Counted from the first letter of the stretch, positions 1-13,713 are shown. The stretch: 20,000 bases of DNA from an uncultured virus (IMG/VR IMGVR_UViG_3300027973_000046) (IMGVR_UViG_3300027973_000046:58929-78928), one strand, 5' to 3'. Made by a program: numbers and translations. The notes: generated by a model not told the origin, from the sequence alone.

Positions 1-357
1 CTGGTGCGAAGCCAAATACATTTCAAAAGACATCTGTGCTGCCATTTCAAAACTGTTTTTAATATAAAGTATTTTTTGGTTTAGCTTTTCATCATCTGTT
101 TTATTCAATACATTTTCTGTTAAAATATTTTTGTTGTTTCCATAAATAAGAGAAGCGTCATTGCTTGCTGTCCAGTCTTCCCACTTTGTAATTGCCTGGT
201 GGCTTCGTTCGTCTGCATCCACAAGGTGTATAAACTTTAATAGCTCTTCTGGGTAGCTTAAAACATTTTTAAAGTACCATATGTCTTTTTCAAGAATTTG
301 TACGTCAAACATGTGATACATGTCGTTTGGGTTAAATGTTTCTTTTGATATTTCCAT
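1..357 (-). CDS. Partial gene running off the window; probable further 2OG-Fe(II) oxygenase (N-terminal 119 aa)
   Basis: Not in the ORF track. ATG at 357-355 overlaps the TAA of the upstream gene (TAATG) and the frame stays open to position 1: MEISKETFNPNDMYHMFDVQILEKDIWYFKNVLSYPEELL...KWEDWTAS... The IWYFKNVL and W..W motifs match the N-termini of the neighbouring oxygenases (VDVYRNVL...NWDKWAS; MWVYRNVF). The catalytic motifs lie outside the window. Confidence 0.65.
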   Translation of the reverse strand, partial: MEISKETFNPNDMYHMFDVQILEKDIWYFKNVLSYPEELLKFIHLVDADERSHQAITKWEDWTASNDASLIYGNNKNILTENVLNKTDDEKLNQKILYIKNSFEMAAQMSFEMYLASHQ

Positions 358-1115
358 TAAATATTCTCCACTTCAGACGCTGGGATATTGTACCCATCGG
401 GGGTTAATCTTAAACCTTTTTCACGAACTTTTTTCCAGTCTTCTTGTTCGCCTTTTTGCATTGCCCTAACTTCTGCTAATTCTTTTGCCCATTCGTCACG
501 GACTTCTTGTGGGTAATCTGATTCTTCTCTGTCGTCCCAGAATGATCCAAGTGTATATCTTGGACTACCTTTTACTACTGTTACCTCGTGCATATTTTTA
601 TGCCCGCCGTGAAAAATTAAAAATGATCCAGCTTTTGGAACAATTTCCATTGGAAGGTTTCCGTGATCAGCGTCAAATTTTAATGTCCCTCCTTCAAAGT
701 CATCATTCAGGTATAAGAATCCAGCATATCTACTTCTAGTAAATGCTCCCATCTTACCTTTATTGTCACTGTTGTCGGAATGCTTTGGGGCAAATGCTCC
801 TGGCAACCATCTCTGCACGTGAAAACTTATTTTTGACATATCTGAAACATTTTTATTTGCAACTTCAGATGCAGCTACTTTAAATTTTTCTTGTATATCT
901 GTAAACCAAGTATTTGATAAATTAAATTTTTCTAGTATTGGCTCTCCGTCGTAAGGATACCTAGCAGAATAAGATTCATAAAAAGAAATTCCTTTCCAGT
1001 AATCCTCATCAGTTTCCTCTAATTCTTTTAAAACATTAATTACAGAAGTGCATTCCTCTGGTGTAATAAAACCTTCATATAAAAATATATCATCAGATAG
1101 CTTTATTAGATTCAT
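357..1115 (-). CDS. 2OG-Fe(II) oxygenase, prolyl 4-hydroxylase-like
   Basis: HxD motif (KHSD), YLNDDFEGGTL, distal His with Arg at +10 (HEVTVVKGSPRYTLGSFW). TAATG overlap at both ends. Confidence 0.9.
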   Translation of the reverse strand: MNLIKLSDDIFLYEGFITPEECTSVINVLKELEETDEDYWKGISFYESYSARYPYDGEPILEKFNLSNTWFTDIQEKFKVAASEVANKNVSDMSKISFHVQRWLPGAFAPKHSDNSDNKGKMGAFTRSRYAGFLYLNDDFEGGTLKFDADHGNLPMEIVPKAGSFLIFHGGHKNMHEVTVVKGSPRYTLGSFWDDREESDYPQEVRDEWAKELAEVRAMQKGEQEDWKKVREKGLRLTPDGYNIPASEVENI

Positions 1116-1933
1116 TACATTGCACCAGGTCCCGATTTGTCTCCAACCAAATCGTCATACTCTACTGGCTTTCCGTCTTGCAAATATCTCATATTTCTTG
1201 GATCTTCAAAATCAATTCTTTTTGATTCTTTTTTCATCCAGTTGTATGCTCCAAAAGTAAGTTGGTTTTGTAGCCATTCTTTTGAGCCAGCATATCTGTG
1301 CATTACAAAGTTTCTAACAAAAAACTTTTCTCCATTGTAAATTGTTTTAACTCCATGAAAATATGGTTCGTCTGAAGGAAACACTAAAATGTCTCCAGCC
1401 TGTGGCTTGTGATTTACTATCTTGCCATCAACAACAAACTCAATGTCTCCGCCGTCATAATCATCATTGATATACATTGTGCATGTAAGTAAGAATTTTG
1501 GTCCAGGCATTTCTCTTTGAGAAATAATATAGTCTGTGTGGTACTGCATTGTCATTTTGTTTTCTAAAACATCAACCTGGTCGTTATATTTTGAGAATGA
1601 GGATCCAGTAAAATACCAGTCTTCTGGTAGCTCAACTCCGTGTCTGGTGATGTAGTCATTTAAAACTAGGTCGTAGGCATCTTGAACCTGTTTAGCAAAA
1701 TCTTTTTCTTCGATAAACATTGGGTCCTGATTGTCTTGATTTATTTCAGCAGTATCTTTTATTTGTGTATATGTTCCAAAAGATGCCCACTTGTCCCAAT
1801 TTTTTAAATAATGCTTTCCTTCAGATGTTCTTTCTGATTTTTTCATTGTTTCGTATAAAGCTTTTGGGTCACGCAAAACATTTCTGTATACATCTACTTT
1901 TGGGTATAACTCTACATATTCTAAATTACTCAT
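1115..1933 (-). CDS. 2OG-Fe(II) oxygenase, prolyl 4-hydroxylase-like
   Basis: HTD, YINDDYDGGDIEF, KPQAGDILVFPS, HGVKTIYNGEK (Lys at +10). Start moved from 1969 to ATG 1933, which has an ATGA overlap with the upstream stop and a GGAG RBS. Confidence 0.9.
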   Translation of the reverse strand: MSNLEYVELYPKVDVYRNVLRDPKALYETMKKSERTSEGKHYLKNWDKWASFGTYTQIKDTAEINQDNQDPMFIEEKDFAKQVQDAYDLVLNDYITRHGVELPEDWYFTGSSFSKYNDQVDVLENKMTMQYHTDYIISQREMPGPKFLLTCTMYINDDYDGGDIEFVVDGKIVNHKPQAGDILVFPSDEPYFHGVKTIYNGEKFFVRNFVMHRYAGSKEWLQNQLTFGAYNWMKKESKRIDFEDPRNMRYLQDGKPVEYDDLVGDKSGPGAM

Positions 1934-2619
1934 GGTTGTTTGTCTCCAGTATGCTTTTGTATTGTCCAAAAAAACGGCGATGTAAATCTATTACCAGATT
2001 TTACTGGGCGGACTCCGTGTGTATAAAACCTATCTCCTGGGAAGAAATAAGCAGCTCCTGCTTTTGGCTTAAACTCTATTCCGTGTTGCGGAAAATAAAG
2101 TTCTCCGCCTTCGTAATCATCATTAAAATAAAATAATCCCGATAAATCGTACCAAGGAAAATCATTTGCTCTTCCCTGTTCAATTCCTGTGTGGAATTCT
2201 TTATCGGCATGTGGCTCTTGTCTTGCACCTATTGGCCACCTTACAATTGCTGGGCCAGTTTCTTTTGCATCAACATCAAAAAATTTGTCTACTTCAATTT
2301 TTAATCTTGCAATCATGCTATTTATTAACTCAAGAATTGTTGGGTCTGACGCCATGAGGGAATTGTATGTACATACCCTATCCTTCCAAATGTCCGCGTC
2401 GTATAAAACAAGACCATCTTCATCTTTATGGGTTTCTGTGTGGTCCCAAATTTTATTATTTAAAGCAAAATTAATAAGTCTTTCTCGCTCTTCTGTGGTT
2501 AAAAAATTCTCTAACTCTACGATGTTATCGGAAGAGTCTCCAAAAAAACCAGATGGAGTTATTGACTTGGGGGCGTTATGCTTATTCCAGTCGTTTGCTA
2601 TTGCTTGATTATTATTCAT
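1930..2619 (-). CDS. 2OG-Fe(II) oxygenase, prolyl 4-hydroxylase-like
   Basis: HAD, YFNDDYEGGELYF, KPKAGAAYFFPG, HGVRPVKSGNRFTSPFFW. Confidence 0.9.
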   Translation of the reverse strand: MNNNQAIANDWNKHNAPKSITPSGFFGDSSDNIVELENFLTTEERERLINFALNNKIWDHTETHKDEDGLVLYDADIWKDRVCTYNSLMASDPTILELINSMIARLKIEVDKFFDVDAKETGPAIVRWPIGARQEPHADKEFHTGIEQGRANDFPWYDLSGLFYFNDDYEGGELYFPQHGIEFKPKAGAAYFFPGDRFYTHGVRPVKSGNRFTSPFFWTIQKHTGDKQP

Positions 2620-2625
2620 ATTATC

Positions 2626-2634
2626 ATTATACCA
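2626..2634 (-). promoter_or_regulatory. Extended -10 promoter (TGGTATAAT), probably leaderless transcript
   Basis: Perfect TGnTATAAT in a 22-nt intergenic gap, 6 nt before ATG 2619, with no Shine-Dalgarno. Confidence 0.6.
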
Positions 2635-2641
2635 TTTCTAT

Positions 2642-3352
2642 TTATTTACTAATATCACGAACATTTAGTATTATTTTTTTGGCCTGGTGGGACCCAAGAG
2701 AATTTCCCTTATGATCAACAGCATTTTTATATAGGCCAGCCCAATCCCCATCTTTTTGTCTTCTAGTAACATACTCGGTATATTCTGGATCGTTCTGTAC
2801 TTCATCTAGGGGCAAATCCAATCCGTTGCTTATTATGGCAGTAGAGTGATTTATTTGTGCTAGATCTATTGGTAATACTGAAACTACTGGGGTGCCCGCT
2901 TTTATTGTTATTGGAACATCTTTTTTTGAAATTTTCCACGCTGGGCTTAGCTGACCTTTTAAAAACGAAGCATTTAATAAAACTTCTAAAACGTGAACCC
3001 CGTCTATAAACTGGTTTGGAACTCTTTTTACCCACAAGGTTAAATTCTCATCTGTTTTAAACATCAGCCCAGTGTTAAATGTAATTATATCATTTCTGCT
3101 ATCAATGTATAGGTACTCTTCTCCAGAAATTACTTCTATATATTTTTGCTGTGGTTTTGGATTTGAGTTGCAAATAAAAGTTATATCTTTTGGAAAAGAT
3201 ATTCCCCATCCAAGATTATTTACTAGGCCAAGCGGAAAACATCTGTATGCGTGTTTTTCTGGCGTCTCGTCCATCCAGTCTCTTTTAGTTTCCAATGTAG
3301 TTAAATTTCCTAGGCTATCTGAAAGCCTATATACATTAAATTCAATTGGCAT
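2642..3352 (-). CDS. DUF6065-like protein (paralogue 2)
   Basis: KRDWMDETPEKHAYRCFPLGLVNNLGW matches the R.WMD.T...AYRC.P...N..GW signature I associate with DUF6065; also IKAGTPVVSVLP. Clear paralogue of 3342-4046. Confidence 0.75.
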   Translation of the reverse strand: MPIEFNVYRLSDSLGNLTTLETKRDWMDETPEKHAYRCFPLGLVNNLGWGISFPKDITFICNSNPKPQQKYIEVISGEEYLYIDSRNDIITFNTGLMFKTDENLTLWVKRVPNQFIDGVHVLEVLLNASFLKGQLSPAWKISKKDVPITIKAGTPVVSVLPIDLAQINHSTAIISNGLDLPLDEVQNDPEYTEYVTRRQKDGDWAGLYKNAVDHKGNSLGSHQAKKIILNVRDISK

Positions 3353-4046
3353 CTGTACCGCCCTTTAATCTTATTGATTTTAGTTGATGCTCTCCTATTT
3401 TGTTTCCAAGATTATCAACGGCGTCTCTGTAAAAATTTGACCATTCCCCAGACTGATTAATTTCTTCAAGCGCTATTGAATATGCTGGAGTAAGGAATTC
3501 TGTTTTTGGTACTTCATGAATATCTCGCAATTCCATTTCTGAATTTTGTAATTCCATTAAATTCATTGGTATGACTGATATTATTGGGGTATTGGCTTTT
3601 ATTGTTATTTCTACATTTGGCCTTGTAATTCTCCAAGCACAGGGAAGGTCTCCCCTAAAAAACGATGTTGAAACAAGCGTTGTAAATGGAACAACACCAT
3701 CAATAAATTGATTTGGCACTGGCATTGAAAGCAAAGTTTCTTCTGGGTCTGTGATAAACATTACTCCAGTACGAAAGCTTACAGTAGCATTTGCACGATC
3801 TGGATAGGCGTATTTTTCACCTTTAAGAATTTTTACATGCTCTCCAGATGTATCAGAAATTCCGTCCCATATAAAAGTTATGTCTTCTGGGAAAGATATA
3901 CCCCAGCCAAGCTGATTAGTTAAGCTGACAGGAAAGCATTTATATGCATGGGCCTTCCAAGTATCATCCATCCAGTCTCTTTTAACAGACAATGGAGATA
4001 CGTTTGCAAGACCATCTCTAGTTTTGTATACCTTTATGTTTTTCAC
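3342..4046 (-). CDS. DUF6065-like protein (paralogue 1)
   Basis: KRDWMDDTWKAHAYKCFPVSLTNQLGWGISFPEDITFIWDG. The start is probably GTG 4046 (AAAGGG just upstream) rather than TTG 4052. Confidence 0.75.
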   Translation of the reverse strand: MKNIKVYKTRDGLANVSPLSVKRDWMDDTWKAHAYKCFPVSLTNQLGWGISFPEDITFIWDGISDTSGEHVKILKGEKYAYPDRANATVSFRTGVMFITDPEETLLSMPVPNQFIDGVVPFTTLVSTSFFRGDLPCAWRITRPNVEITIKANTPIISVIPMNLMELQNSEMELRDIHEVPKTEFLTPAYSIALEEINQSGEWSNFYRDAVDNLGNKIGEHQLKSIRLKGGTDAN

Positions 4047-4707
4047 GTTCAACCCTTTCGGCTCTCATTTGCATAAACTCTTGGTTGTGTGCGTGATCAT
4101 TATAATCAAGCATTGTTACAATTGAATATTTTCTACCAGAAGTTACTGGTGCGGCTAAGTGAGAGAAGAGATAGGTTGATGGGAATATGTATAGGTCTCC
4201 AGCCTGTGGCTTAATGCTTAAGTTTAATTTTGGAAAAACAAGTTCTCCGCCTTCATACTCATCGTTTGGGTAAGCAACTAAGGAAACTGTGGCGCTGTAA
4301 GAAAATCCATGGTCTGCATGCTCTTGAAAATGTTGTCCTGGACCATACTGAATAAAGTTCATTACTTCCCAGTAATTCATTCTAACGTTATATGCAGCAC
4401 AATAATCTTCAACCGCTGGTATCTGTGCATTGTAAGAGTCTTGCCAAATTGTAGCAAGTGTGGCTTGATCATCGTTTATTGGATTAGTAATTTCTCCAAT
4501 TTTAAAATCTCTGCAGTCTCTATAGCTTGGCTTCTTTTCCATGTATCCTACTGTGGCGTCCTGCCATGACAAGCCACTTGAATTATTTTCTAGCAAGACA
4601 CTTACTCTGTTCATGATGTCAAGCTCTGGGGTAAATACGTTGCGGTATACCCACATGCCTGGAAATAGCATTTCTTTTGATGACCAATTTTGACTAATGT
4701 TACTCAT
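4018..4707 (-). CDS. 2OG-Fe(II) oxygenase, prolyl 4-hydroxylase-like
   Basis: YGPGQHFQEHAD, YPNDEYEGGELVF, KPQAGDLYIFPS, HLAAPVTSGRKYSIV (Lys at +10). GGAG RBS; ATG directly follows the upstream TAA. Confidence 0.9.
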   Translation of the reverse strand: MSNISQNWSSKEMLFPGMWVYRNVFTPELDIMNRVSVLLENNSSGLSWQDATVGYMEKKPSYRDCRDFKIGEITNPINDDQATLATIWQDSYNAQIPAVEDYCAAYNVRMNYWEVMNFIQYGPGQHFQEHADHGFSYSATVSLVAYPNDEYEGGELVFPKLNLSIKPQAGDLYIFPSTYLFSHLAAPVTSGRKYSIVTMLDYNDHAHNQEFMQMRAERVEREKHKGIQN

Positions 4708-5304
4708 TTATTCTCCTAGTTTAGTATAGTTTAACATATCATCAGGTAGTATGTCAATAATTAAATGGGTTCTGTCTTCACTGCTTTTATTGCTAACGGC
4801 ATGCGGTAGCATATTATTTATTTCGTAGATACCAAACTCTTCCATATGAATGGTATTATTAAAGACCGTAAAGGTAACGTCTTTATTAGTAATGATTGGG
4901 ATGTGGACTCTCCTAGAAAAATTTAATAGGGGGCCTGCATCAACATGCTTATGAACTTCTGAATTTGCGTGTAGCTTAATTATCTCACATCTAATTACTT
5001 TTCCGCAATAGTGTTCTTCCAGATAATTAAAAAGTTTATCTAATTCTTCTTGGGCTTCTTTTGTTTTTAGAGAATTTTCATAAGTTGTAACAATCTCTAG
5101 GTCTGGGGTCCACTCGTATGGGGTTGAGCATATTCTAAACATTTCTGTATTTGTGTGAACAAGTCCATGATTTTGTCTTGTAGTATTTAAAAGCCACTCA
5201 TCAGAAAAATTAGAAACTTCTGCTTTTATCATTTTTATATCACAAAAGCCTAAATGTTTAATTGACCATTTAGTATCTTTTTTTATTCTTTGATACATAC
5301 TCAT
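4708..5304 (-). CDS. Aspartyl/asparaginyl beta-hydroxylase-family 2OG-Fe(II) oxygenase
   Basis: HKHVDAG, RRVHIPIITN and EINNMLPHAVSNKSSEDRTHLIID match the Asp_Arg_Hydrox/AspH-type pattern. The start may be ATG 5298, which is better spaced from GGAGGTG. Confidence 0.85.
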   Translation of the reverse strand: MSMYQRIKKDTKWSIKHLGFCDIKMIKAEVSNFSDEWLLNTTRQNHGLVHTNTEMFRICSTPYEWTPDLEIVTTYENSLKTKEAQEELDKLFNYLEEHYCGKVIRCEIIKLHANSEVHKHVDAGPLLNFSRRVHIPIITNKDVTFTVFNNTIHMEEFGIYEINNMLPHAVSNKSSEDRTHLIIDILPDDMLNYTKLGE

Positions 5305-5980
5305 ACACCTCCATGTCCATTTTATTTAAATCTTCTATTTTACTTATTTGAGATTTTGTTAAATTTAACTCTAATCCTGGGGATCTATTTGCTGGGTCTG
5401 ACCTGTGTTTAAACGACTCAAACCCAAAATTATTTTTTAATGCCTTATTTAAATCTTCTTTAAACAAGGATATATCCTCAAGTGTATAATAGTAAAAATT
5501 TTGTAAATTGTCAATTGCTTTTTGAGGCCCGCCCTCTATTCCTTCCAAGTACCACCCGCTATCAATAGTGTGCTGAAAATAATTAAAGTGTTTATTAAAC
5601 TGATCAATGTTTGTTTTTCCAATTAAAAATTTAGTCTGAAGGTTTGACTGCATTTCGGACTGTTCTCCATATAGCCAGCTCTCAAGCTTTTCTTCAGATT
5701 CTTTGCCCGCCCTTATTAAACCAGTTGTATATTTAAAATAGCTTACAAATCTATCTACTGGATTTCTTATTATTGTAAATACTTCTGGGTTGTCCATATA
5801 ATCTAAGGGCATGGTTCCAAAATGTCCGCCAACAAATAAACTTTTATTTATAACAGATGGTTCTATTATTGTTCTATTTGAAACAAAATGTGAAACCCCA
5901 CCAGTAATTAGGTGGGGCAGCACATGATTCTTTATATGTATTCCAGCAGTGCGTGGGATATGTAGGTGGTAAATAGACAT
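5270..5980 (-). CDS. PAPS-dependent sulfotransferase (Sulfotransfer_2-like)
   Basis: 5'-PSB loop HLHIPRTAG (canonical HIPKTAG) and 3'-PB motif FTIIRNPVDRFVSYF. C-terminal N..D..VY motif. Confidence 0.85.
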   Translation of the reverse strand: MSIYHLHIPRTAGIHIKNHVLPHLITGGVSHFVSNRTIIEPSVINKSLFVGGHFGTMPLDYMDNPEVFTIIRNPVDRFVSYFKYTTGLIRAGKESEEKLESWLYGEQSEMQSNLQTKFLIGKTNIDQFNKHFNYFQHTIDSGWYLEGIEGGPQKAIDNLQNFYYYTLEDISLFKEDLNKALKNNFGFESFKHRSDPANRSPGLELNLTKSQISKIEDLNKMDMEVYEYVSKNKKRY

Positions 5981-7465
5981 TTATGCAAAATATTTTCTAT
6001 TATGTACTACTAATCCTCCCGCTATTAAAATGTCATTAGGAGCTGCATCGAACTCATAAACATTTCTGTTTTCATCGATAATTTGAATTTCATTTACTAG
6101 AATAGAAGAGAAAGATCCATCTTCATTTCTAGAAATTACTTCGTCTCCTGGCTCTAAAATTCCAGTTACTCCAAAGAAATATGTGTTATTTCTTTTCACA
6201 AGAATTGTTTGTTCTAGAGAGAATCTGTGAGCAGGGTTACCGTTAATACATAGTGTAACTTCTTTAACAGAAGGAATTATGTTTGTTATAACAGTTGGAA
6301 CAATTGCTAGATTGTTTAGTTCTGAGCTGGACCATGTGTAAGGGTCTACTGAGAATTCGCTATCTAGTCCGTCCCAAGTTACACCCCAAACATTATCTCC
6401 AATTTGAACATCTGAAGCTTTTTTGTATTCTATTGTATTGTTTTCTCCGATTATTGTAATCAGTGTATCTTGATCAATACAGAACCCTGGAGGTGAGAAG
6501 AACCCTGGAGGTGAGAAGAATCCTGGAGGTGCAAAGAACCCTGGAGGTGAGAAGAACCCTGGAGGTGAGAAGAACCCTGGAGGTGAGAAGAACCCTGGAG
6601 GGCTAAAGAAGTTTGGTGGCGCAAAGAAGCCTGGTGGGCTAAAGAACGACGGTGGGCTAAAGAACGCTGGTGGCGAGAAGAAGCCTGGTGGGCTAAAGAA
6701 CGCTGGTGGCGAGAAGAATGCTGGTGGCGAGAAGAATGAAGGTGGCGAGAAGAAGCCTGGTGGGCTAAAGAACGCTGGTGGCGAGAAGAACGCTGGTGGC
6801 GAGAAGAATGAAGGTGGCGAGAAGAAGCCTGGTGGGCTAAAGAACGCTGGTGGGAAGAACGGCGGGAAGAACGGGGCTAGAGTTGTTACAGAATTTGAAC
6901 TTCCAGAGTAAGCAGAATTTAAATTTCCGTTTATAGCAAGTACTTGATATGTCTGTGAAGTATTTGCTGTTTCTGGTACAGTGTATGAAGTTCCAGTTGT
7001 TGAATAAGTTGGTCCATCAGAAGACTTAAGTATGTAACCAGTTACAGATGACCCTCCATTATTTTCTGGTGCTGCCCATGTAACATAGTCTTGATTTGTT
7101 TGCGCTGTTGCTACTGGAGCCGCTGGTGTTGAGGTAACTGTTGTTACTGTAACTTGATTAGATGCGGCAGAAGGAAGGGATGTTCCGTTATCATTACTTG
7201 CTGTTACTGTTATGGTTGGCGTAGCGCCTACACCAAAACCTGTAATTGTTAATGGTGAAGATGCACCTGTTACAGTTTGTCCCGTGCTGGCTGTTGCTGT
7301 AAATGATGTTGCAGCATTTCTGTTGTCTGGGGTAAATGTTATTGTAACTGCGCCGTTGTTGTACGGACGATTAGTTCCAACATTTGTTGCTGTACCAATA
7401 ATTGGTGCATATGGTGCCAGGAAGTCATTAGCTCCCTGGCTCATTCTACCTGCTTGTTTTGACAT
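5981..7465 (-). CDS. FN3-FN3 / (FFSPPx)20 repeat / C-terminal Hint domain protein
   Basis: Two FN3-like domains (VTITFTP...TITVTASNDNGTS; VTWAAPENNGGSSVTGY...YQVLAINGN), a Pro/Phe repeat at aa 198-328, and a Hint domain from C329 (CIDQDTLI...DVQIGDNV...LEPGDEV...VYEF...GGLVVHN489). AAGGAG RBS. Confidence 0.9.
   Translation of the reverse strand: MSKQAGRMSQGANDFLAPYAPIIGTATNVGTNRPYNNGAVTITFTPDNRNAATSFTATASTGQTVTGASSPLTITGFGVGATPTITVTASNDNGTSLPSAASNQVTVTTVTSTPAAPVATAQTNQDYVTWAAPENNGGSSVTGYILKSSDGPTYSTTGTSYTVPETANTSQTYQVLAINGNLNSAYSGSSNSVTTLAPFFPPFFPPAFFSPPGFFSPPSFFSPPAFFSPPAFFSPPGFFSPPSFFSPPAFFSPPAFFSPPGFFSPPAFFSPPSFFSPPGFFAPPNFFSPPGFFSPPGFFSPPGFFSPPGFFAPPGFFSPPGFFSPPGFCIDQDTLITIIGENNTIEYKKASDVQIGDNVWGVTWDGLDSEFSVDPYTWSSSELNNLAIVPTVITNIIPSVKEVTLCINGNPAHRFSLEQTILVKRNNTYFFGVTGILEPGDEVISRNEDGSFSSILVNEIQIIDENRNVYEFDAAPNDILIAGGLVVHNRKYFA
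5999..6481 (-). other. Hint (Hedgehog/intein-like) autoprocessing domain, 161 aa, no endonuclease
   Basis: N-terminal Cys (codon 6481-6479), D.QIGD.V motif, L.PGDEV motif, block F VYEF and terminal VVHN, followed only by RKYFA-stop. Confidence 0.88.
6482..6874 (-). repeat. Coding 18-bp tandem repeat: PFFPPFFPPA + 20 x FF(S/A)PP(G/A/S/N) + F
   Basis: Counted directly from the translation: aa 208-327 are 20 hexapeptides. The DNA units vary at synonymous positions. Confidence 0.97.
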
Positions 7466-7489
7466 TTATATATTCTCCCTTAATCCGAA

Positions 7490-10400
7490 TTACGCTGAAA
7501 GGTCTCCAAAGACCAACCATCCGCTTGATATTTTCATTGCTGTTACAACTGAGTTAGTTGTTCTAAACTTAAGTCCTGGTGTTCCAACAACTCCATTAGT
7601 TGATTCAAAACGTGCTCCTGTGGATGATGCCTGGTGGAAGTCGATTGACTGTCCAGTTACGTATCCTGTTGCTGGTAGAGTAATTACTACTGCTCCAGTT
7701 AGTGGTATAAACTGATCTGCCCGATCTGGTCCGATTGTAACTGCTCCTGCTGCTAATGCAGTTGGAATGTTAGTAATAGAAGGAACGCCAGCCTTAGTCT
7801 GTGTACCGTCTGTAAAGACTACGCCAGATGCTGCAACTGTTACTGCTCCAGTAAATGTTGGTGAAGCAATTGGAGCGAATCCTGCAATACTTGCGCCTGC
7901 TGGGATTGTAACTGTTCCTGTAAATGTAGGAGACTCAATGCCTGCTACTGTAGAGTAGTTTGTTCCATCAGTTGTAAACTCCCACTTATCAGTAGATTCG
8001 TTCCAACGAATCTGAACTGCAGATGAATCTCCACGCATGATTCTTAGTCCAGCGTTTTCTGTTGGAGCACCTGTAGTAAAGTTACTATTTAGGTCAATAA
8101 TGTTATCAGCCAAAGAAATTGTTTCGCTGTTTACAGTTGTAGTTGTTCCGCTTACTGTTAGGTTTCCACCAACAACAAGGTTTCCATTTACTTCTGCATT
8201 ATCATTAAGGTAAACTTTTCCTGTACCGTTTCCAGATAATGATAAGTCTGTATTTGTTGTTTTGCTTGTAATACTATCAGTTTTTACTCCATTGCTAAAG
8301 GCAATTCCATTACCGTCTGCGCTTGAGAAGTTAGCTCCTGCTTCAACTACTAAAGGTCCCTTGATATTAACAGAGCCAGTTCCTGTTGGATCTAGTTCAA
8401 TGTTACCGCTTCCGCTTGTTCTTAGGCCAAGGTTTTCATTAATGTCGGCAGAAACAACAATTGCTCCTGATTCATCTTGAATAACCTTCTGACCGTTAAC
8501 GTATAGTGATCCTGGACCTACGTAGATATCTTTCCACATCTTTGTAGGAGAACCTAAGTCAAATGTGTTGTCAGTTGCAGGAACTATGCTTCCACCTGCA
8601 GTAACTGTTGGCAAAACTACAGTTCCTGTAAATGTTGGTGATGCAAGTGGTGCTTTAAGATTGTCATTTGTAATAGTTGCATAAGTTGCGGCAGCTGTTG
8701 CGCTAGCAAGGTAGGTTGAAGATGCTGTACCTATCGCTAGCTTTGAATCTAATTGTGTTTGTATTGCTGAAGTTACACCATCAACATATCCAATTTCATC
8801 TGCTGAAACGTTTCCGATTGATGTAGTTGCTGGCAATACTACTGTGCCAGTAAATGTAGGTGCTGCTGATGGGGCTTTTGCCGCAAGGTTTGAAACCAAG
8901 TCTGTAATTTTAGACTGATCAATAAATCCTGCAAGCATTACGTTTGTAATTCCACCAGTGTTAGTTTTTACTATTGCCTCTCCAGCAATTTTTAGTGGAG
9001 AAATTTCTGCTGTGTCGCTAATATCTAAATTAGATATTGCTCCGTTTGCAATTTTTCCTGAAGTTACTGCATTATCCGCTAGTTCGCTTGTTCCTACAGA
9101 AGATGCTGCGATCTTTGCTGCTGTTACTGAATCATCGGCTAGCTTTAAAGTTGTTATTGTTAAGTCTGCAATCTTTGCTGCTGTTACTGCGCCATCGGCT
9201 ATCTCGCTGGTTCCTACAGCAGATGCTGCGATCTGTGCTGCTGTTACTGCGTTATCGGCTATCTCGCTGGTTCCTACAGCAGATGCTGCGATCTGTGCTG
9301 CTGTTACTGAATCATCAGCCAACTTTGCGGTTGTTACTGAATCGTCAGCCAACTTTGCGGTTGTTACTGCAAGATCTGCAATCTTTGCTGCTGTTACTGC
9401 GTCATCAGATAATTTTTGATTTGTTACTGCTTCGTCGTCAATCTTTAAAGTTGTTACTGCGTCGTCGGCTAGCTTTAAAGTTGTTACTCCTTGGTTTGCA
9501 ATCTTTGCGGTTTCCACTGCAAGGTCTGCTAGCTTTGTAGCTCCAACAGCACCATTTGCAATTTTTGCTGAATTGACTGCTAGGTCTTCAATTTTACTTG
9601 GAGTGACTGCTGCGTCTGCAATCTTTGTTGCAATAACTGCTGCGTCTGCAATCTTTGTAGTTATTACTGCACCAGAAACAATTGCTCTAGATCCTACTGA
9701 GCTTACGTTCATCATTGGTTCTGTAACTGCAGAGTCAGGCAAAGTTACTGTTCCTGTAAATGTTGGACTAATAATAGGAGCTTTTAGGTCTATTTGTCCG
9801 TATACCTGAGATATGTTTGCTGCATCGTATTTTGAATTAAGTTGTGTTTGTATGGCTGAAGTAACTCCATTTAATGTCTGAAGTTCAGCATTTGAAACAT
9901 CTCCAATTGATGCGCGATCTGCAAATAGTCCTCCGAGTTGAAGGTCGTCTTTTGTGTATGTTGTAAAGTCTACTACTGTTGTAGGCTCTGCGGTAACACC
10001 AGAAAATAGTTTCCATCTTCCGCCATCAGATGCATCACGAACAAGACCAGAATGCTGGTATGTTCCGTCATTAAATGCTGCAACGACTCCAAGGTCAAGT
10101 GCGTTTGATTGGTTGCCATCTCCAATATAAATCATTGGATCGTCTACTGTTACATTTGTAGAATTTACTGTAGTGCTAGTTCCATTAACTGTCAGGTTGC
10201 CTGAAATGGTTACGTTATTAGCTGTGAGGCCTGTTGCAACATCTAGGTTAATTGCATTAAGTGTGGTGGCATTTACTGTTCCAGAAAAATTTGGAGAATT
10301 TGAAACTGCTATATTTAGGTATCCGCCTGCATCGTCATAAGTTTTAACAATGTTTGTGCCAGCAGTAATTTCAGAGGCTACAACATCTTGAATTGTTTCT

Positions 10401-10840
10401 GTTATATCTAGCTCTGATGCTGGAACTTTACCGACACTGTTAAGTGATGCTACTCCAAGCGCTGTGCCGCGATCAGAAAGTGGTATAAATCCCTCGTCAA
10501 CTGTATTTGATAATGCCAGTACGGTTTCCTGTACGTAATTTTTAGTTGCAATAATGCTTGAATCGACATTTATTGTAATGGTATTAGATCCATCGTTATA
10601 TGTCTTTGTTAGTCCCGCTCCCATTGTAAGTGCGGTGTTAATTGCGTCTTGGGAAATTTCACCAATCGCTACATCTGAATTATTTGCATATGCAAGGGCG
10701 GTCCAGGTAGAAGATCCGTTACCGAACTTAAATAGGTTTGAGTCTGACTCTACACCCATTTCTCCTGCTGCCAAAATTGGATTTACTGAGGTCCATTGTG
10801 AAGCTGTACCTCTTCTTACTTGAATTCTTACTGTTGACAT
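7490..10840 (-). CDS. Long tail fibre/appendage protein with Mtd_N-like N-terminus
   Basis: RIQVRRGTASQWTSVNPILAAGEMGVESDSNLFKFGNG (Mtd_N-type), GNLTV.GT.TTVNS modules, 10-aa repeats, several P(I/L)ASPTFTGTV-type fibre motifs, C-terminal WLVFGDLSA. The start is probably ATG 10840, after AAGGGGTGG. Confidence 0.85.
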   Translation of the reverse strand: MSTVRIQVRRGTASQWTSVNPILAAGEMGVESDSNLFKFGNGSSTWTALAYANNSDVAIGEISQDAINTALTMGAGLTKTYNDGSNTITINVDSSIIATKNYVQETVLALSNTVDEGFIPLSDRGTALGVASLNSVGKVPASELDITETIQDVVASEITAGTNIVKTYDDAGGYLNIAVSNSPNFSGTVNATTLNAINLDVATGLTANNVTISGNLTVNGTSTTVNSTNVTVDDPMIYIGDGNQSNALDLGVVAAFNDGTYQHSGLVRDASDGGRWKLFSGVTAEPTTVVDFTTYTKDDLQLGGLFADRASIGDVSNAELQTLNGVTSAIQTQLNSKYDAANISQVYGQIDLKAPIISPTFTGTVTLPDSAVTEPMMNVSSVGSRAIVSGAVITTKIADAAVIATKIADAAVTPSKIEDLAVNSAKIANGAVGATKLADLAVETAKIANQGVTTLKLADDAVTTLKIDDEAVTNQKLSDDAVTAAKIADLAVTTAKLADDSVTTAKLADDSVTAAQIAASAVGTSEIADNAVTAAQIAASAVGTSEIADGAVTAAKIADLTITTLKLADDSVTAAKIAASSVGTSELADNAVTSGKIANGAISNLDISDTAEISPLKIAGEAIVKTNTGGITNVMLAGFIDQSKITDLVSNLAAKAPSAAPTFTGTVVLPATTSIGNVSADEIGYVDGVTSAIQTQLDSKLAIGTASSTYLASATAAATYATITNDNLKAPLASPTFTGTVVLPTVTAGGSIVPATDNTFDLGSPTKMWKDIYVGPGSLYVNGQKVIQDESGAIVVSADINENLGLRTSGSGNIELDPTGTGSVNIKGPLVVEAGANFSSADGNGIAFSNGVKTDSITSKTTNTDLSLSGNGTGKVYLNDNAEVNGNLVVGGNLTVSGTTTTVNSETISLADNIIDLNSNFTTGAPTENAGLRIMRGDSSAVQIRWNESTDKWEFTTDGTNYSTVAGIESPTFTGTVTIPAGASIAGFAPIASPTFTGAVTVAASGVVFTDGTQTKAGVPSITNIPTALAAGAVTIGPDRADQFIPLTGAVVITLPATGYVTGQSIDFHQASSTGARFESTNGVVGTPGLKFRTTNSVVTAMKISSGWLVFGDLSA
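9014..9703 (-). repeat. 23 x decapeptide repeat (consensus xAVTxAK(I/L)AD)
   Basis: 30-bp periodicity. The 60-bp copies at 9181-9240 and 9241-9300 differ at only 2 positions. Confidence 0.93.
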
Positions 10841-10872
10841 ATTTGCCACCCCTTGTTTAGATTTATTTGTTA

Positions 10873-10881
10873 ATTATAGCA
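10873..10881 (-). promoter_or_regulatory. Extended -10 promoter (TGCTATAAT)
   Basis: Perfect TGnTATAAT in the intergenic gap, about 30 nt upstream of the long fibre start. Confidence 0.55.
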
Positions 10882-10901
10882 CTACAATAATTCCAAAACA
10901 A

Positions 10902-11273
10902 TTACGAAATTGTTCCAGAATCAAAGGTCATGCTGTATATATCTGTTGAGTAATCTCCACCATCCGCAAACTTTGTGGCTGCTGTATTTACTCCATTTGC
11001 AAAAACTGTATATACTGGCTGGCCGTCATAATCTATTGCCAGTCCAATATCCATAAATGTTAAAGCACCTAGATCTTCCGCCGCATCTGTAAGGAGGGCG
11101 ATTTCCTTCCAAGCACCATTTATCTGGATTTTTAATCTTCCAGTTGATGAGTCGAAGGCAAGGGGGGTTGAATTTAAGACTAAGTTGTCTACATTTACTG
11201 CTGCATCGAATGTTGCAGGTCCTGCTACGTTAAGGCCATTTTTAACCTTGAAGTTCTTATTTACTATTGCCAT
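10902..11273 (-). CDS. Small virion structural/fibre-associated protein
   Basis: N-terminus MAIVNKNFKVKNGLNV is nearly identical to that of 11337-13100. Acidic DGG/DSG C-terminus; AGGGG RBS. Confidence 0.7.
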   Translation of the reverse strand: MAIVNKNFKVKNGLNVAGPATFDAAVNVDNLVLNSTPLAFDSSTGRLKIQINGAWKEIALLTDAAEDLGALTFMDIGLAIDYDGQPVYTVFANGVNTAATKFADGGDYSTDIYSMTFDSGTIS

Positions 11274-11300
11274 TTAAGTTCACATATCCCCTAATGTTTT

Positions 11301-11333
11301 GGTGGGGTTTTGAAAGGACCCCATACCTTTTAT
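11301..11333. terminator. Intergenic hairpin (possible terminator or processing site)
   Basis: TGGGGTTTT-GAA-AGGACCCCA inverted repeat followed by TACCTTTTAT on the + strand. Confidence 0.4.
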
Positions 11334-11336
11334 TAA

Positions 11337-13678: not shown

Positions 13679-13707
13679 GTTGCCTCCTGGCGGTACTGCA
13701 TTTACTA

Positions 13708-13713
13708 ATTATA
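13708..13713 (-). promoter_or_regulatory. -10 element TATAAT
   Basis: AGATATAATTA in the intergenic gap about 30 nt upstream of ATG 13678. It shares the TATAATTA context of the 10873 site. Confidence 0.45.

What the first reader, a model, noticed from the sequence alone, without database searches (positions are those of the whole stretch)
1..7465. Candidate phage-encoded post-translational modification system: (FFSPPx)20-Hint substrate plus sulfotransferase, 5-6 Fe/2OG hydroxylases and 2 DUF6065-like proteins
Seen: a Ser-Pro-Pro/Phe-Phe repeat protein whose stop codon directly abuts a run of nine genes. Eight of the nine junctions abut or overlap, and every gene with a recognisable activity is a group-transfer or oxidation enzyme. 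Established: P4H-type 2OG oxygenases hydroxylate Pro-rich repeats (plant extensin Ser-Pro motifs; the chlorovirus PBCV-1 prolyl 4-hydroxylase acts on Pro-rich repeat peptides), and PAPS sulfotransferases modify hydroxyl groups. Inference: this is a substrate-plus-tailoring cluster, organised like a RiPP gene cluster but inside a phage tail module. It would hydroxylate Pro/Phe/Asn and then sulfate the repeat, giving a chemically decorated virion appendage or released peptides. Phage 2OG oxygenases are usually labelled generic auxiliary metabolic genes; here a plausible substrate sits next to them.
Basis: partly seen in the sequence, partly recalled or inferred. Interest (0 to 1): 0.92.

Follow-up and report, generated by a model that had tools for sequence, protein, structure and literature searches.

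The report
Hint-capped Phe/Pro repeat plus hydroxylase cassette
An uncultured lake phage encodes, next to its tail-fibre genes, a protein with twenty Phe-Phe-Ser-Pro-Pro-x units capped by an intein-like self-cutting domain and followed by nine tightly packed enzyme genes, mostly collagen-type proline hydroxylases, which makes the repeat a testable but unproven target for phage oxygenases whose role has long been unknown.

Summary
Window 5981-7465 (- strand) encodes a 494-aa protein with a conserved N-part containing FN3, a 132-residue charge-free tract with 20 FF[S/A]PPx units, and a C-terminal Hint domain. Pfam missed the Hint domain, but a profile search and a fold search both found it. Nine genes follow, and 8 of the 9 junctions abut or overlap. 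They encode a sulfotransferase, an AspH-family oxygenase, five P4H-type 2OG oxygenases with intact iron and 2OG residues, and two DUF6065 proteins.

DUF6065 has a dUTPase fold and is not an oxygenase.

Wherever the sequence reaches far enough, related viral contigs carry the repeat gene directly before such an enzyme block. This held in a search anchored on the repeat gene, one anchored on DUF6065 and one anchored on a neighbouring LamG gene. Two phages whose compared head-module genes are 98-100% identical have swapped the repeat gene and the whole block together.

Proline-rich repeats go with 3-9 P4H-type genes, and Phe-Gly repeats go with 0-2. That split maps to a single branch, so it has no statistical weight. 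Collagen-like fibres are dissociated from the block.

The substrate link is therefore plausible (about 0.5) but not shown. The idea has partial precedent in print (Iyer et al. 2010). This scan has also met the same system repeatedly on other DNA.

The parts
6878..7465 (-). Repeat protein, N-terminal conserved part (residues 1-196). It includes an FN3-type domain.
   Evidence: The family alignment A8 (37 rows) matches titin/fibronectin FN3 domains in the PDB. PF00041 fn3 is found in 34 of 37 members. The window's own copy scores nothing at E<=0.01.
6482..6877 (-). Charge-free Phe/Pro repeat (residues 197-328) with 20 FF[S/A]PPx units and 11 Pro-Pro-Gly.
   Evidence: TRF gives period 18 nt and 20.7 copies. 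This part is hypervariable among relatives, which carry FFxPPx, FFPP/FFPFFPP, FGAFGAFG or FGVFGFSP repeats.
5981..6481 (-). C-terminal Hint (BIL/Hog-type) domain plus stop codon. It starts with Cys329 directly after the last repeat and ends ...VVHN-RKYFA.
   Evidence: The A1 profile against PDB sequences gives a bacterial intein-like domain (2lwy, E 8e-7) and inteins. The AF2 model has pLDDT 92.4. Foldseek top hits are the BIL2 domain 6y75 (E 4e-8), inteins and hedgehog 1at0. Pfam alone finds nothing.
5270..5980 (-). Sulfotransferase (236 aa). Its start abuts the stop codon of the repeat gene.
   Evidence: PF03567 scores 32 bits against a cut-off of 22. HIPRTxG and R72/P74/R77/S80 are invariant in 7 orthologues. 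The nearest solved chain is heparan sulfate 6-O-sulfotransferase 5t03, E 1e-6.
4708..5304 (-). AspH-family 2OG oxygenase (198 aa).
   Evidence: PF05118 scores 45.1 against 22.6. H120, D122, H168 and R178 are invariant in 8 orthologues. The nearest solved chain is L-proline cis-4-hydroxylase 4p7w, E 1.5e-7.
4018..4707 (-). P4H-type 2OG oxygenase ox4 (229 aa).
   Evidence: PF13640 scores 51.9 bits. H130, D132, H183 and K193 are invariant in 24 orthologues. Nearest solved chains: B. anthracis P4H 3itq/5hv0 (E 4e-8), LH3, mimivirus L230 6ax6 and PBCV-1 P4H 5c5t (E 0.011).
3342..4052 (-). DUF6065 protein b (236 aa), dUTPase fold.
   Evidence: PF19541, E 1e-30. The AF2 model has pLDDT 92.3. VIA-align gives Z 11 to dUTPases, and the top 22 rows are all dUTPase/dCTP deaminase superfamily or viral dUTPase-fold proteins. 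W27, C39, G49, D57, P156, P162 and Y208 are invariant.
2642..3352 (-). DUF6065 protein a (236 aa), a paralogue 41% identical to b.
   Evidence: PF19541, E 2e-28. Identity is from alignment A2.
1930..2619 (-). P4H-type 2OG oxygenase ox3 (229 aa).
   Evidence: PF13640 scores 37.2 bits. H137, D139, H201 and R211 are invariant in 17 orthologues. Nearest real solved chains: P4H 5hv0 (E 4e-6) and prolyl 3-hydroxylase 1 8k0e (E 7e-6).
1115..1969 (-). P4H-type 2OG oxygenase ox2 (284 aa from the TTG start; the ATG at 1933 gives 272 aa).
   Evidence: PF13640 scores 35.7 bits. H144, D146, H205 and K215 are invariant in 22 orthologues. PDB matches are weak: P3H1 at E 0.007 and P4H at E 0.027.
357..1115 (-). 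P4H-type 2OG oxygenase ox1 (252 aa).
   Evidence: PF13640 scores 42.3 bits. The HSD...HEV...RYT motifs are seen in the sequence.
1..357 (-). N-terminal 119 residues of P4H-type oxygenase ox0. The whole gene is 220 aa and runs 306 nt beyond the window's left edge.
   Evidence: L001:18623-19285 matches PF13640 at 45.9 bits. The HCD...HEV...RYT motifs are seen in the sequence.
7490..10849 (-). Tail-fibre-type protein (1119 aa) directly upstream. This is context only, not part of the cassette.
   Evidence: Mtd_N and tail-fibre PHROGs matches. A homologue precedes the repeat gene in most of the related loci that reach that far upstream.

Best explanation
This is a cassette of uncultured freshwater phages. 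The portal is about 55% identical to portals of Streptomyces phages, so the host is probably an actinobacterium. The cassette sits between the tail-fibre genes and the head genes.

Its first gene makes a fibre-module protein with three parts: an FN3-bearing N-part, a greasy charge-free (Phe-Phe-Ser/Ala-Pro-Pro-x)20 thread, and a C-terminal Hint domain.

- Shown: the Hint fold, a Cys directly after the last repeat, and a terminal His-Asn with no downstream nucleophile.
- Inferred: as in BIL and Hedgehog domains, the Cys turns the preceding peptide bond into a thioester. The Hint domain then removes itself. This leaves the repeat's C-terminus free, or hands it to another nucleophile.

The nine genes behind it are read as one translationally coupled run.

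- Shown: five collagen-type prolyl/lysyl-hydroxylase-like oxygenases and one AspH/proline-hydroxylase-like oxygenase keep their iron and 2OG ligands. The sulfotransferase keeps its PAPS-binding motifs. The two DUF6065 proteins have a dUTPase fold with an invariant Cys.
- Inferred: the oxygenases hydroxylate prolines of the phage's own repeat. X-Pro-Gly and Ser-Pro-Pro sites are the likeliest targets, and different paralogues would act at different positions.
- Inferred: the AspH-like enzyme and the sulfotransferase add a further hydroxyl and a sulfate.
- Inferred: the DUF6065 proteins act as non-catalytic partners of the oxygenases that precede them.

The product would be a chemically decorated thread on the virion's adsorption apparatus.
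For: 1. Synteny under three different anchors.
- Anchored on the repeat gene: 79 loci were kept of 229 relatives. Every locus with a proline-type repeat has P4H-type genes and DUF6065 behind it.
- Anchored on DUF6065 in genome contigs: all 4 loci (of 8) that reach upstream of the first oxygenase carry a Pro-type repeat gene there.
- Anchored on the LamG gene: all 23 loci whose upstream reaches that position have a repeat gene directly before the block. Of these, 21 are Pro-type with at least 5 oxygenases and 2 are Phe-Gly-type with a different set.

2. Cassette behaviour. L148 and L119 share portal, protease, capsid and two small neighbouring ORFs at 98-100% and LamG at 94%; one gene further downstream is only 56% identical. 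From the repeat gene to the last oxygenase, nothing is above 29% identical. The repeat type (FG against PP) and the enzyme set change together.

3. Enzyme kinship. The profiles of ox4 and ox3 find B. anthracis P4H, P3H1, LH3, mimivirus L230 and PBCV-1 P4H as nearest solved chains. The catalytic residues are invariant.

4. Proline content. Repeats with Pro-Pro go with 3-9 P4H-type genes in uncut blocks. Phe-Gly repeats go with 0, or 2 in L066.

5. Collagen is not the partner. A complete 109-kb genome with a Pro-type repeat and 6 block oxygenases has no collagen match. A complete 116-kb genome with collagen-like genes has no such block.

6. A second, separate pairing. In Phe-Gly-type phages, another Pro-rich repeat protein is followed by a small Cys-rich protein and a single P4H-type gene. 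The repeats are (xVTP)n, (TP)n/(AP)n, (PVVPP)n-Hint and (AVTP)n-Hint. This is seen in 4 places.

7. In the 73%-complete own contig, the repeat protein is the only coding-strand ORF with a 40-residue stretch of at least 30% Pro, and it holds the only Hint domain.

8. Every family member has Cys or Ser at the repeat/Hint junction, although the repeat itself is hypervariable. The junction is seen in 23 of 23 rows that reach it, and in the other 9 rows.

9. Oxygenase-to-DUF6065 adjacency. In 63 unique loci, 54 of 69 DUF6065 runs are preceded by an oxygenase, mostly with overlapping or abutting genes.
Against: - No mass, activity or binding datum exists.
- On a tree of the N-domain, the Phe-Gly class is one clade (17 rows, support 97). 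The Pro-repeat/oxygenase covariation therefore needs only one change and carries no statistical weight.
- Within Pro-type loci the number of oxygenases correlates only loosely with the Pro count (rho 0.51, n=29, not corrected for kinship). It does not correlate with the Pro-Pro count (rho 0.07). L039 keeps 5 oxygenases beside a 20-residue remnant repeat.
- Gene neighbourhood in a mosaic fibre region can reflect linkage alone.
- The own contig has a further oxygenase (ox2-like, E 1e-34) and a DUF6065 gene in the replication/recombination module, with no Pro-rich neighbour.
- Relatives' blocks also hold an SDR, a class II ribonucleotide reductase and families of unknown function.
- The sulfotransferase's nearest solved relative acts on a sugar. 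The AspH-like enzyme's nearest solved relative acts on free L-proline.
- The sulfotransferase/AspH pair follows the Hint subtype (12 of 12 against 0 of 44). It also occurs with a Phe-Gly-type repeat in L046.
- The window's Hint domain has Gln where relatives have the block-B His: S-L-E-Q against T-L-E-H or S-G-S-H. Its self-cleavage is therefore less certain.
- Synechococcus phage Syn9 has a DUF6065 homologue (gp43) with a dioxygenase array behind its fibre genes, but no such repeat-Hint gene.
Confidence: 0.5

Rival explanations
1. The enzyme block is an auxiliary or secondary-metabolite island. It hydroxylates and sulfates a small molecule, a free amino acid or a non-ribosomal or short peptide. 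It lies beside the repeat gene only because the fibre region is a hot spot for insertions.
For: - Iyer et al. 2010 proposed secondary-metabolite synthesis for the Syn9 array of 10 dioxygenases, 2 halogenases and a dUTPase-fold Cys protein (passages read). Syn9 gp43 is a DUF6065 member by my A2 profile, E 2.9e-18.
- The AspH-like enzyme's nearest solved chain is a free-L-proline cis-4-hydroxylase.
- The sulfotransferase's nearest solved chain is a carbohydrate sulfotransferase.
- Relatives' blocks include an SDR.
Against: - The window has no backbone-making enzyme: no NRPS, ATP-grasp or halogenase.
- Three oxygenase profiles lie nearest to protein prolyl/lysyl hydroxylases.
- The block never appears without the repeat gene in three differently anchored samples of this phage group.
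- The block swaps together with the repeat gene.
Confidence: 0.17
2. The oxygenases modify other proteins: collagen-like tail fibres, other virion proteins, or host proteins such as translation factors or envelope proteins. The repeat protein is only a neighbour.
For: - The window has collagen-like fibre genes on both sides. One (15923-18298) contains GPx and GLKGDTG triplets. The other is a collagen + S74 gene just left of the window.
- The nearest solved relatives act on collagen-like substrates.
- One oxygenase + DUF6065 pair lies far from any Pro-rich gene.
Against: - PF01391 has 0 matches in a complete genome that carries the block, and 5 matches in a complete genome without it.
- Of the 39 Pro-type loci, 26 have no run of 6 or more Gly-X-Y triplets within the fetched +/-10 kb.
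- Host targets cannot be tested with these tools.
Confidence: 0.2
3. DUF6065 and the oxygenases act on nucleotides or DNA, as part of a base-modification pathway.
For: - DUF6065 has the dUTPase/dCTP-deaminase fold.
- One oxygenase + DUF6065 pair lies among RuvC-, RecA- and exonuclease-like genes.
- A class II ribonucleotide reductase borders the block in many relatives.
Against: - The DUF6065 profile finds no dUTPase at the sequence level (0 PDB sequences at E<=1).
- The oxygenases belong to PF13640, with protein hydroxylases as nearest structures. No nucleic-acid oxygenase (AlkB, TET/JBP) appears among those hits.
- No glycosyl- or methyltransferase of base-modification type is present in the window.
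Confidence: 0.05

Closest known systems
Chlorovirus PBCV-1 prolyl 4-hydroxylase (PDB 5c5t) and mimivirus L230 collagen lysyl hydroxylase (PDB 6ax6), acting on the viruses' own Pro-rich or collagen-like repeats
   Same: These are virus-encoded 2OG oxygenases of the collagen-hydroxylase clade paired with virus-encoded repeat proteins. Both chains are matched by the ox4 profile, at E 0.011 and 0.008.
   Different: Those are single enzymes in giant eukaryotic viruses. Here a bacteriophage carries five paralogues plus an AspH-like enzyme, a sulfotransferase and two dUTPase-fold proteins. The candidate substrate is a Phe/Pro repeat capped by a Hint domain. The substrate work on PBCV-1 (Eriksson et al. 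1999) and on mimivirus is recalled, not read here.
Tandem dioxygenase array of Synechococcus phage Syn9, gp41-gp54 (Iyer, Abhiman, de Souza, Aravind 2010, PMC2938197)
   Same: [quoted passage not shown] That protein, gp43, matches my DUF6065 profile at E 2.9e-18. The array lies right after the fibre and fibre-assembly genes gp32-gp39.
   Different: Syn9's oxygenases do not match my ox2-ox4 or AspH profiles at E<=0.01. Syn9 has tryptophan halogenases and no FN3-repeat-Hint gene. The authors proposed secondary-metabolite synthesis, not modification of a virion protein.
Bacterial operons of beta-hydroxylase + PhyH-type dioxygenase + sulfotransferase with co-encoded collagen-like or tail-collar proteins (prediction in Iyer et al. 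2010)
   Same: [quoted passage not shown] The window has an AspH-family gene overlapping a sulfotransferase gene.
   Different: Those are cellular operons with PAPS synthetase and Gly-rich or tail-collar proteins. Here the setting is a phage, no PAPS synthetase is in the window, and the co-encoded protein is a Phe/Pro repeat with a Hint domain. Neither case has been tested. The paper's Figure 4 and supplements were not seen.
Bacterial intein-like (BIL) domains, ciliate BUBL BIL domains and the Hedgehog/Hog autoprocessing domain (Hint superfamily)
   Same: Shared features are the Hint fold, a Cys at position 1, a C-terminal His-Asn, and no splicing nucleophile after it. Top fold matches are 6y75 (BIL2 of BUBL1), 2lwy and 1at0. 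These domains cut themselves off and can pass the upstream chain to another nucleophile (recalled).
   Different: Here the domain caps a low-complexity aromatic repeat on phage fibre-module proteins. The window's copy lacks the block-B His. Cleavage or transfer has not been tested.
Bacillus anthracis prolyl 4-hydroxylase (PDB 3itq, 5hv0)
   Same: It is the best solved match of the ox4 profile (E 4e-8) and a top match for ox3 (E 4e-6). The match covers the HxD...H core.
   Different: It is a cellular single-gene enzyme studied with collagen-like (Gly-Pro-Pro)n peptides (recalled). Similarity is at the family level only.

Membership tests
Hint superfamily (BIL / Hog type autoprocessing domain) | Hint fold | tested here: met
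   The AF2 model has pLDDT 92.4. Foldseek finds BIL2 6y75 at E 4e-8, TM 0.66-0.76, followed by inteins and hedgehog 1at0. The A1 profile finds 2lwy at E 8e-7.
Hint superfamily (BIL / Hog type autoprocessing domain) | Nucleophile (Cys/Ser) as first residue of the domain | tested here: met
   Cys329 follows the last repeat. Cys or Ser is present in all 32 family rows.
Hint superfamily (BIL / Hog type autoprocessing domain) | Block B Thr-x-x-His (motif recalled) | tested here: not met
   The window has S-L-E-Q at the aligned place. Relatives have T-L-E-H or S-G-S-H.
Hint superfamily (BIL / Hog type autoprocessing domain) | Self-cleavage at the N-terminal junction | not testable with these tools
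   This needs expression and a gel or mass measurement.
Intein (protein splicing) | Cys/Ser/Thr after the C-terminal Asn, and a C-extein that completes a host protein | tested here: not met
   The sequence ends ...VVHN-RKYFA. Arg follows the Asn, and only 5 residues remain.
P4H-type 2OG-Fe(II) oxygenases (PF13640) | Profile match above the curated cut-off | tested here: met
   All five genes score 35.7-51.9 bits against a cut-off of 27.
P4H-type 2OG-Fe(II) oxygenases (PF13640) | His-x-Asp...His iron triad and a basic 2OG-binding residue | tested here: met
   These residues are invariant in the orthologue alignments of ox4, ox3 and ox2. They are present in the ox1 and ox0 sequences.
P4H-type 2OG-Fe(II) oxygenases (PF13640) | Peptidyl-proline as substrate | not testable with these tools
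   Only kinship is available: the nearest solved chains are protein prolyl/lysyl hydroxylases.
Asp/Asn beta-hydroxylase family (PF05118) | Profile match above the cut-off and conserved metal ligands | tested here: met
   The score is 45.1 against 22.6. H120, D122, H168 and R178 are invariant. The nearest solved chain is L-proline cis-4-hydroxylase.
Sulfotransferase (PF03567, Sulfotransfer_2) | Profile match above the cut-off and PAPS-binding loops (5'-PSB and 3'-PB motifs, recalled) | tested here: met
   The score is 32 against 22. HIPRT(A/S)G and R72..P74..R77..S80 are invariant in 7 orthologues. The acceptor is unknown.
DUF6065 (PF19541) | Profile match above the cut-off | tested here: met
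   Scores are 107.4 and 100 bits against a cut-off of 26.6.
dUTPase / dCTP deaminase superfamily | Fold | tested here: met
   VIA-align gives Z 10-11 over 116-135 aligned residues for the seven best dUTPase chains (Z 8.5 or more, 102-135 residues, for the top 13 rows). The top 22 rows are dUTPases, dCTP deaminases or viral dUTPase-fold proteins such as HCMV pp71 and MHV-68 ORF10.
dUTPase / dCTP deaminase superfamily | Catalytic sequence motifs of dUTPases | tested here: inconclusive
   The A2 profile finds no PDB sequence at E<=1. The invariant residues are W, C, G, D, P, P and Y. Motifs were not mapped residue by residue onto a dUTPase.
RiPP biosynthetic gene cluster | Short precursor with leader and core peptide, recognised by tailoring enzymes and released by a protease | tested here: not met
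   The candidate substrate is a 494-aa protein with FN3 and Hint domains. No leader, RiPP recognition element or dedicated protease was found by Pfam. The resemblance lies only in the gene order, with the substrate first and the tailoring enzymes after it.

The most novel reading that the evidence does not exclude
The phage builds an extensin- or mussel-glue-like thread on its adsorption apparatus. A charge-free Phe/Pro repeat is hydroxylated at several positions by a battery of dedicated prolyl hydroxylases and is O-sulfated. Its C-terminus is activated as a thioester by the Hint domain, so the decorated thread becomes covalently joined to another virion protein or to a host-envelope nucleophile. 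The cassette of repeat plus matched enzymes is exchanged as a unit to change host range. This would give the large family of orphan phage 2OG oxygenases, and DUF6065, their first function.
Probability: 0.22. Interest if true: 0.88.

Novelty: new variant of a known kind. Interest (0 to 1): 0.68.

Why it matters
Phage genomes from lakes and oceans carry many 2OG-Fe(II) oxygenase genes that are labelled generic 'auxiliary metabolic genes'. No substrate has been assigned to them. The one published analysis of such an array that I read (Syn9) guessed at secondary metabolites.

Here a concrete candidate substrate sits directly before the array and is exchanged with it. It is small enough to express and easy to assay by mass. 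That makes an old open question directly testable.

If the link holds, it would show three things:
- bacteriophages chemically tailor their own adsorption organelles, as giant viruses and eukaryotes tailor collagen and extensins;
- Hint domains serve as removable or ligating caps on phage fibre proteins;
- DUF6065 is a partner of protein hydroxylases.

If the link fails, the cassette still defines a widespread, undescribed class of Hint-capped aromatic-repeat fibre proteins.

Tried and rejected
- **Pfam on the repeat protein.** Neither the whole protein nor thirds of it gave a Hint or FN3 match. Family profiles and a fold model were needed.
- **Isolate phage collection (50,697 records).** There was no DNA match to window 1-7465. 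tblastn found no match for the repeat protein or for DUF6065. The system is so far seen only in uncultured phages, apart from the remote DUF6065 homologue in Syn9.
- **Viral scan with alignment A2.** I then used the narrower alignment A9 on genome contigs.
- **The 8 MAG contigs from that scan.** They carry inconsistent labels (Bacteroidetes, Acidimicrobiaceae, Beijerinckiaceae, Luteolibacter and others). They look like mis-binned phage contigs, so I did not use them as host evidence.
- **Fused forms of DUF6065.** None was found among longer proteins. This is weak evidence.
- **Unknown block families u2, u4, u7, u9 and u10 of the Phe-Gly-type loci.** None has a Pfam match. The u2 profile has HDHGG and GHPH motifs, only spurious PDB hits, and hhalign probability 3.5% against ox4. 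Whether these families are oxygenases stays open.
- **Promoter and terminator scans.** They were at chance level: 42 found against 33.8 +/- 4.9 expected, and 8 against 9.2 +/- 3.3.
- **RNA libraries.** Contigs from four metatranscriptome runs of four studies cover 25-27 of 30 bins of window 1-11000. One contig (5759-6510) bridges the junction between the repeat gene and the sulfotransferase. DNA carry-over is not excluded, and contigs cannot show a transcript. This is presence only.
- **Complex prediction for ox4 + DUF6065 (A3 + A2).** The job was never accepted because the queue was full, so no result exists.
- **Sulfotransferase/AspH against Hint subtype.** There are 4 independent pairs, all in the same direction, p = 0.125. 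The genes abut, so linkage is enough to explain it.
- **Literature searches.** 'DUF6065' gave 0 papers. Prolyl 4-hydroxylase/phage/tail fiber/collagen-like gave nothing relevant in the 15 listed. Bacterial intein-like/phage/Hint/tail gave only inteins in terminases. 2OG-Fe/phage/tail fiber/hydroxylation gave only generic AMG notes in the listings. None of these searches turned up a description of Hint-capped repeat proteins beside phage oxygenases.

Full report
**What is there.** All genes of the window lie on the - strand. Window 5981-7465 encodes a 494-aa protein. Its DNA holds an 18-nt tandem array of 20.7 copies at 6481-6853. In the protein, residues 197-328 are a charge-free tract (P45 F45 S21 G11 A9 N1). 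It has 18 FFSPPx and 2 FFAPPx units and 11 Pro-Pro-Gly.

Nine genes follow, and 8 of the 9 junctions abut or overlap (coordinates):
- a Sulfotransfer_2 protein;
- an Asp_Arg_Hydrox protein;
- five 2OG-FeII_Oxy_3 proteins;
- two DUF6065 proteins.

All of them score above Pfam's cut-offs. The last oxygenase runs 306 nt past the window's left edge.

The window is the right end of a 78.9-kb viral contig. Upstream lie tail-fibre-type genes. Downstream lie a collagen + Peptidase_S74 fibre, a LamG protein, the portal, the protease and the capsid.

**The repeat protein.** Pfam sees neither Hint nor FN3 in it.
- A profile of 32 C-terminal domains from relatives (A1) finds a bacterial intein-like domain (2lwy, E 8e-7) and inteins among solved sequences.
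- An AlphaFold model (pLDDT 92.4) matches the BIL2 domain of Tetrahymena BUBL1 (E 4e-8), many inteins, the C. thermocellum BIL and the hedgehog autoprocessing domain.
- The domain starts with Cys329 right after the last repeat and ends VVHN followed by RKYFA. It is therefore not an intein. It has the layout of BIL/Hog domains that cut themselves off.
- One caveat applies. Relatives have T-L-E-H or S-G-S-H at block B, and the window has S-L-E-Q.
- The N-part belongs to a family in which 34 of 37 members match Pfam fn3. The family profile finds titin and fibronectin FN3 domains.

**The family.** A scan of viral contigs found 229 relatives, of which 79 loci were kept. The family has three parts:
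- a conserved N-domain;
- a hypervariable aromatic repeat: FFxPPx, FFPP/FFPFFPP, (GAF)n or FGVFGFSP;
- a variable end: a Cys-type Hint of several subtypes, a Ser-type Hint, a small Cys-rich knot, or nothing.

The residue at the repeat/Hint junction is Cys or Ser in all 32 rows.

In several phages a second fibre-region protein carries the same repeat and the same Hint subtype as the first: L066, L069 and L059. L042 has a second one with another Hint. Repeat + Hint thus behaves as a cassette that is appended to fibre-module proteins.

**The enzymes.**
- Orthologue alignments show invariant HxD...H and Lys/Arg in ox4, ox3 and ox2. The same motifs are present in ox1 and ox0.
- The ox4 profile lies nearest to B. 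anthracis P4H (E 4e-8), human LH3, mimivirus L230 and PBCV-1 P4H. The ox3 profile lies nearest to P4H and prolyl 3-hydroxylase 1. The ox2 matches are weak.
- The AspH-like protein keeps H120, D122, H168 and R178. It lies nearest to L-proline cis-4-hydroxylase, E 1.5e-7.
- The sulfotransferase keeps HIPRTxG and an R..P..R..S motif. It lies nearest to heparan sulfate 6-O-sulfotransferase.
- DUF6065 is not an oxygenase. Its model (pLDDT 92.3) has the dUTPase fold, with Z 11 and all top 22 rows from the dUTPase/dCTP deaminase superfamily or viral dUTPase-fold proteins.
- The DUF6065 profile finds no dUTPase by sequence. Its invariant residues include one Cys.
- In 63 unique loci, 54 of 69 DUF6065 runs are preceded by an oxygenase gene, mostly overlapping or abutting.

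**Does the block go with the repeat gene?** It does in the repeat-anchored sample. That sample is biased by its anchor, so I used two other anchors.
- With DUF6065 as anchor in genome contigs, 8 loci came back. All are from this phage group. All 4 that reach upstream of the first oxygenase carry a Pro-type repeat gene there.
- With the LamG gene as anchor, 53 loci came back, 51 of them with a LamG ORF. All 23 whose upstream reaches the position have a repeat gene directly before the block. Of these, 21 are Pro-type with at least 5 oxygenases. The other 2 (L116, L148) are Phe-Gly-type with the set 'u2 A D D u2 u2 O O'. Three further loci (L105, L113 and L128) are cut inside the repeat gene and show its Hint end followed by the block.
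- L148 and L119 have portal, protease, capsid and two small neighbouring ORFs 98-100% identical and LamG 94% identical; one gene further downstream is only 56% identical. Nothing from the repeat gene to the last oxygenase is above 29% identical. The repeat gene and the whole block were therefore exchanged as one cassette.

I found no block without a repeat gene, and no repeat gene without a block, in this phage group.

**How strong is the covariation?** Pro-Pro repeats go with 3-9 P4H-type genes in uncut blocks. Phe-Gly repeats go with none before the ribonucleotide reductase, except 2 in L066.
- On a tree of the N-domain (56 rows), the 17 Phe-Gly rows form one clade with support 97. One change explains the pattern, so it has no statistical weight.
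- Within Pro-type loci, the Pro count and the oxygenase number correlate loosely (rho 0.51, n=29, not corrected for kinship). The Pro-Pro count does not correlate (rho 0.07). L039 keeps 5 oxygenases beside a 20-residue remnant repeat.
- The sulfotransferase/AspH pair occurs in exactly the 12 rows whose Hint ends [V/I/C]HNxK, including one Phe-Gly-type locus (L046). This needs 5 changes on the tree and gives 4 independent pairs (p = 0.125). Because the genes abut, linkage is enough to explain it.

**Rival substrates.**
- Collagen-like fibres are the obvious alternative. However, a complete 109-kb genome with a Pro-type repeat and 6 block oxygenases has no PF01391 match. A complete 116-kb genome with 5 collagen matches has no such block.
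- Of the 39 Pro-type loci, 26 have no Gly-X-Y run within the fetched flanks.
- In Phe-Gly-type phages, the single P4H-type gene outside the reductase neighbourhood lies behind another Pro-rich repeat protein and a small Cys-rich protein. The repeats are (xVTP)n, (TP)n/(AP)n, (PVVPP)n-Hint and (AVTP)n-Hint. This is seen in 4 places. It repeats the theme at a second site.

Several results count against the reading:
- The own contig has an ox2-like oxygenase and a DUF6065 gene among RuvC-, RecA- and exonuclease-like genes.
- Relatives' blocks hold an SDR, a second kind of sulfotransferase, a class II ribonucleotide reductase and unknown families.

**What is known.**
- Iyer et al. 2010 (passages read) described the Syn9 array of 10 dioxygenases, two halogenases and a dUTPase-fold protein with a conserved cysteine. 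They proposed secondary-metabolite synthesis.
- Syn9 gp43 matches my DUF6065 profile at E 2.9e-18. The array lies right after the fibre genes. Syn9 has no repeat-Hint gene and no match to my oxygenase profiles.
- The same paper predicted that bacterial beta-hydroxylase + sulfotransferase operons hydroxylate and then sulfate co-encoded collagen-like or tail-collar proteins.
- My searches found no description of Hint-capped aromatic repeats beside phage oxygenases.
- Earlier notes of this scan describe the same system on other DNA many times. I tested their main claims here rather than relying on them.

My best reading (about 0.5) is that the cassette encodes a fibre-module protein whose Phe/Pro thread is hydroxylated, and perhaps sulfated, by the enzymes behind it, and whose Hint cap removes itself. 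The rivals are a small-molecule island (0.17), other protein targets (0.2) and nucleotide chemistry (0.05).

It is a new variant of known kinds: viral prolyl hydroxylases with viral repeat substrates, phage dioxygenase arrays, and Hint autoprocessing. Its interest lies mainly in making the function of orphan phage oxygenases testable.

Weak side evidence: lake metatranscriptome libraries hold contigs of the region, including one across the junction between the repeat gene and the sulfotransferase. DNA carry-over is not excluded. The planned complex prediction for ox4 + DUF6065 never ran because the queue was full.

Noticed in passing
G000:C1:13646-15477 (outside the window; own contig, locus L090): A third DUF6065 gene (13646-14365) and an ox2-like oxygenase (14647-15477, A5 profile E 1e-34) sit in the replication/recombination module, among RuvC-, RecA- and exonuclease-like genes. 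A 105-aa ORF lies between them and there is no Pro-rich neighbour. A further oxygenase lies at 9942-10565.
   Followed up: partly
L066:2967-5798 and 10001-11356; L069:1-2070 and 10001-11593; L059:2-664 and 10001-11326; L042:1-2421 and 8185-9588: Within one phage, two different fibre-region proteins carry the same repeat type. In three of the four phages they also carry the same Hint subtype with near-identical junctions. This looks like concerted evolution or copying of a repeat+Hint cassette between genes.
   Followed up: partly
L088 (G005:C1:82035-84997); L068:2-2150; L059:2-1457; L069:1-2930: In the Phe-Gly-type phages there is a recurring triad: a Pro-rich repeat protein ((xVTP)n, (TP)n/(AP)n, (PVVPP)n or (AVTP)n), then an ~80-aa Cys-rich protein (CPE..CKKCGC..CPLGKW), then a single P4H-type oxygenase.
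   Followed up: partly
L044:10001-11326, L055:7130-8446, L064:8761-9999: The Phe-Gly class includes pure (Gly-Ala-Phe)17-22 tracts. These have glycine at every third residue, like a collagen repeat, but no proline.
   Followed up: no
L061:12628-13224; L022:9232-9912 and homologues: Other enzyme kinds are recruited to the same position in relatives. They include a Sulfotransfer_1 protein (E 2e-6), unrelated to the window's Sulfotransfer_2, and a short-chain dehydrogenase (adh_short, E 4e-42).
   Followed up: partly
L046:4171-5462, L059:13460-16264, L066:14664-16848 and others (alignment A10): Unknown ~220-aa family 'u2' replaces most oxygenases behind Phe-Gly repeats. It has conserved HDHGG and GHPH motifs and a C-terminal QHWIPL. 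It has no Pfam or credible PDB match.
   Followed up: partly
L039:1235-2341 compared with L034:3762-5135: Two near-identical repeat proteins differ by an almost complete deletion of the repeat (20 against 104 residues). The five oxygenases behind them stay. This may be a recent deletion or an assembly collapse.
   Followed up: no
window 7490-10849: The 1119-aa tail-fibre-type protein has a long run of ~11-residue units (A.KIAD.AVT..) and an Mtd_N start. The reverse strand of this repeat gives long spurious ORFs.
   Followed up: no
window 15923-18298 and 11337-13100: One fibre protein is collagen-like, with GPx triplets and three GLKGDTG units (X-Lys-Gly sites). Another is Ala-rich, with repeated ATDATSKVAAEAALRV(S/T)GDAASV units.
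   Followed up: no
L099 (Synechococcus phage syn9 28855-29805, gp36): Between the Syn9 fibre genes and its dioxygenase array lies a 316-aa protein with 111 glycines. It is a low-complexity candidate counterpart of the repeat protein.
   Followed up: no
window 6510-6880: The longest listed contigs of all four RNA-library runs stop at about 6510-6515, the edge of the 18-nt array. This is probably an assembly break at the repeat.
   Followed up: no
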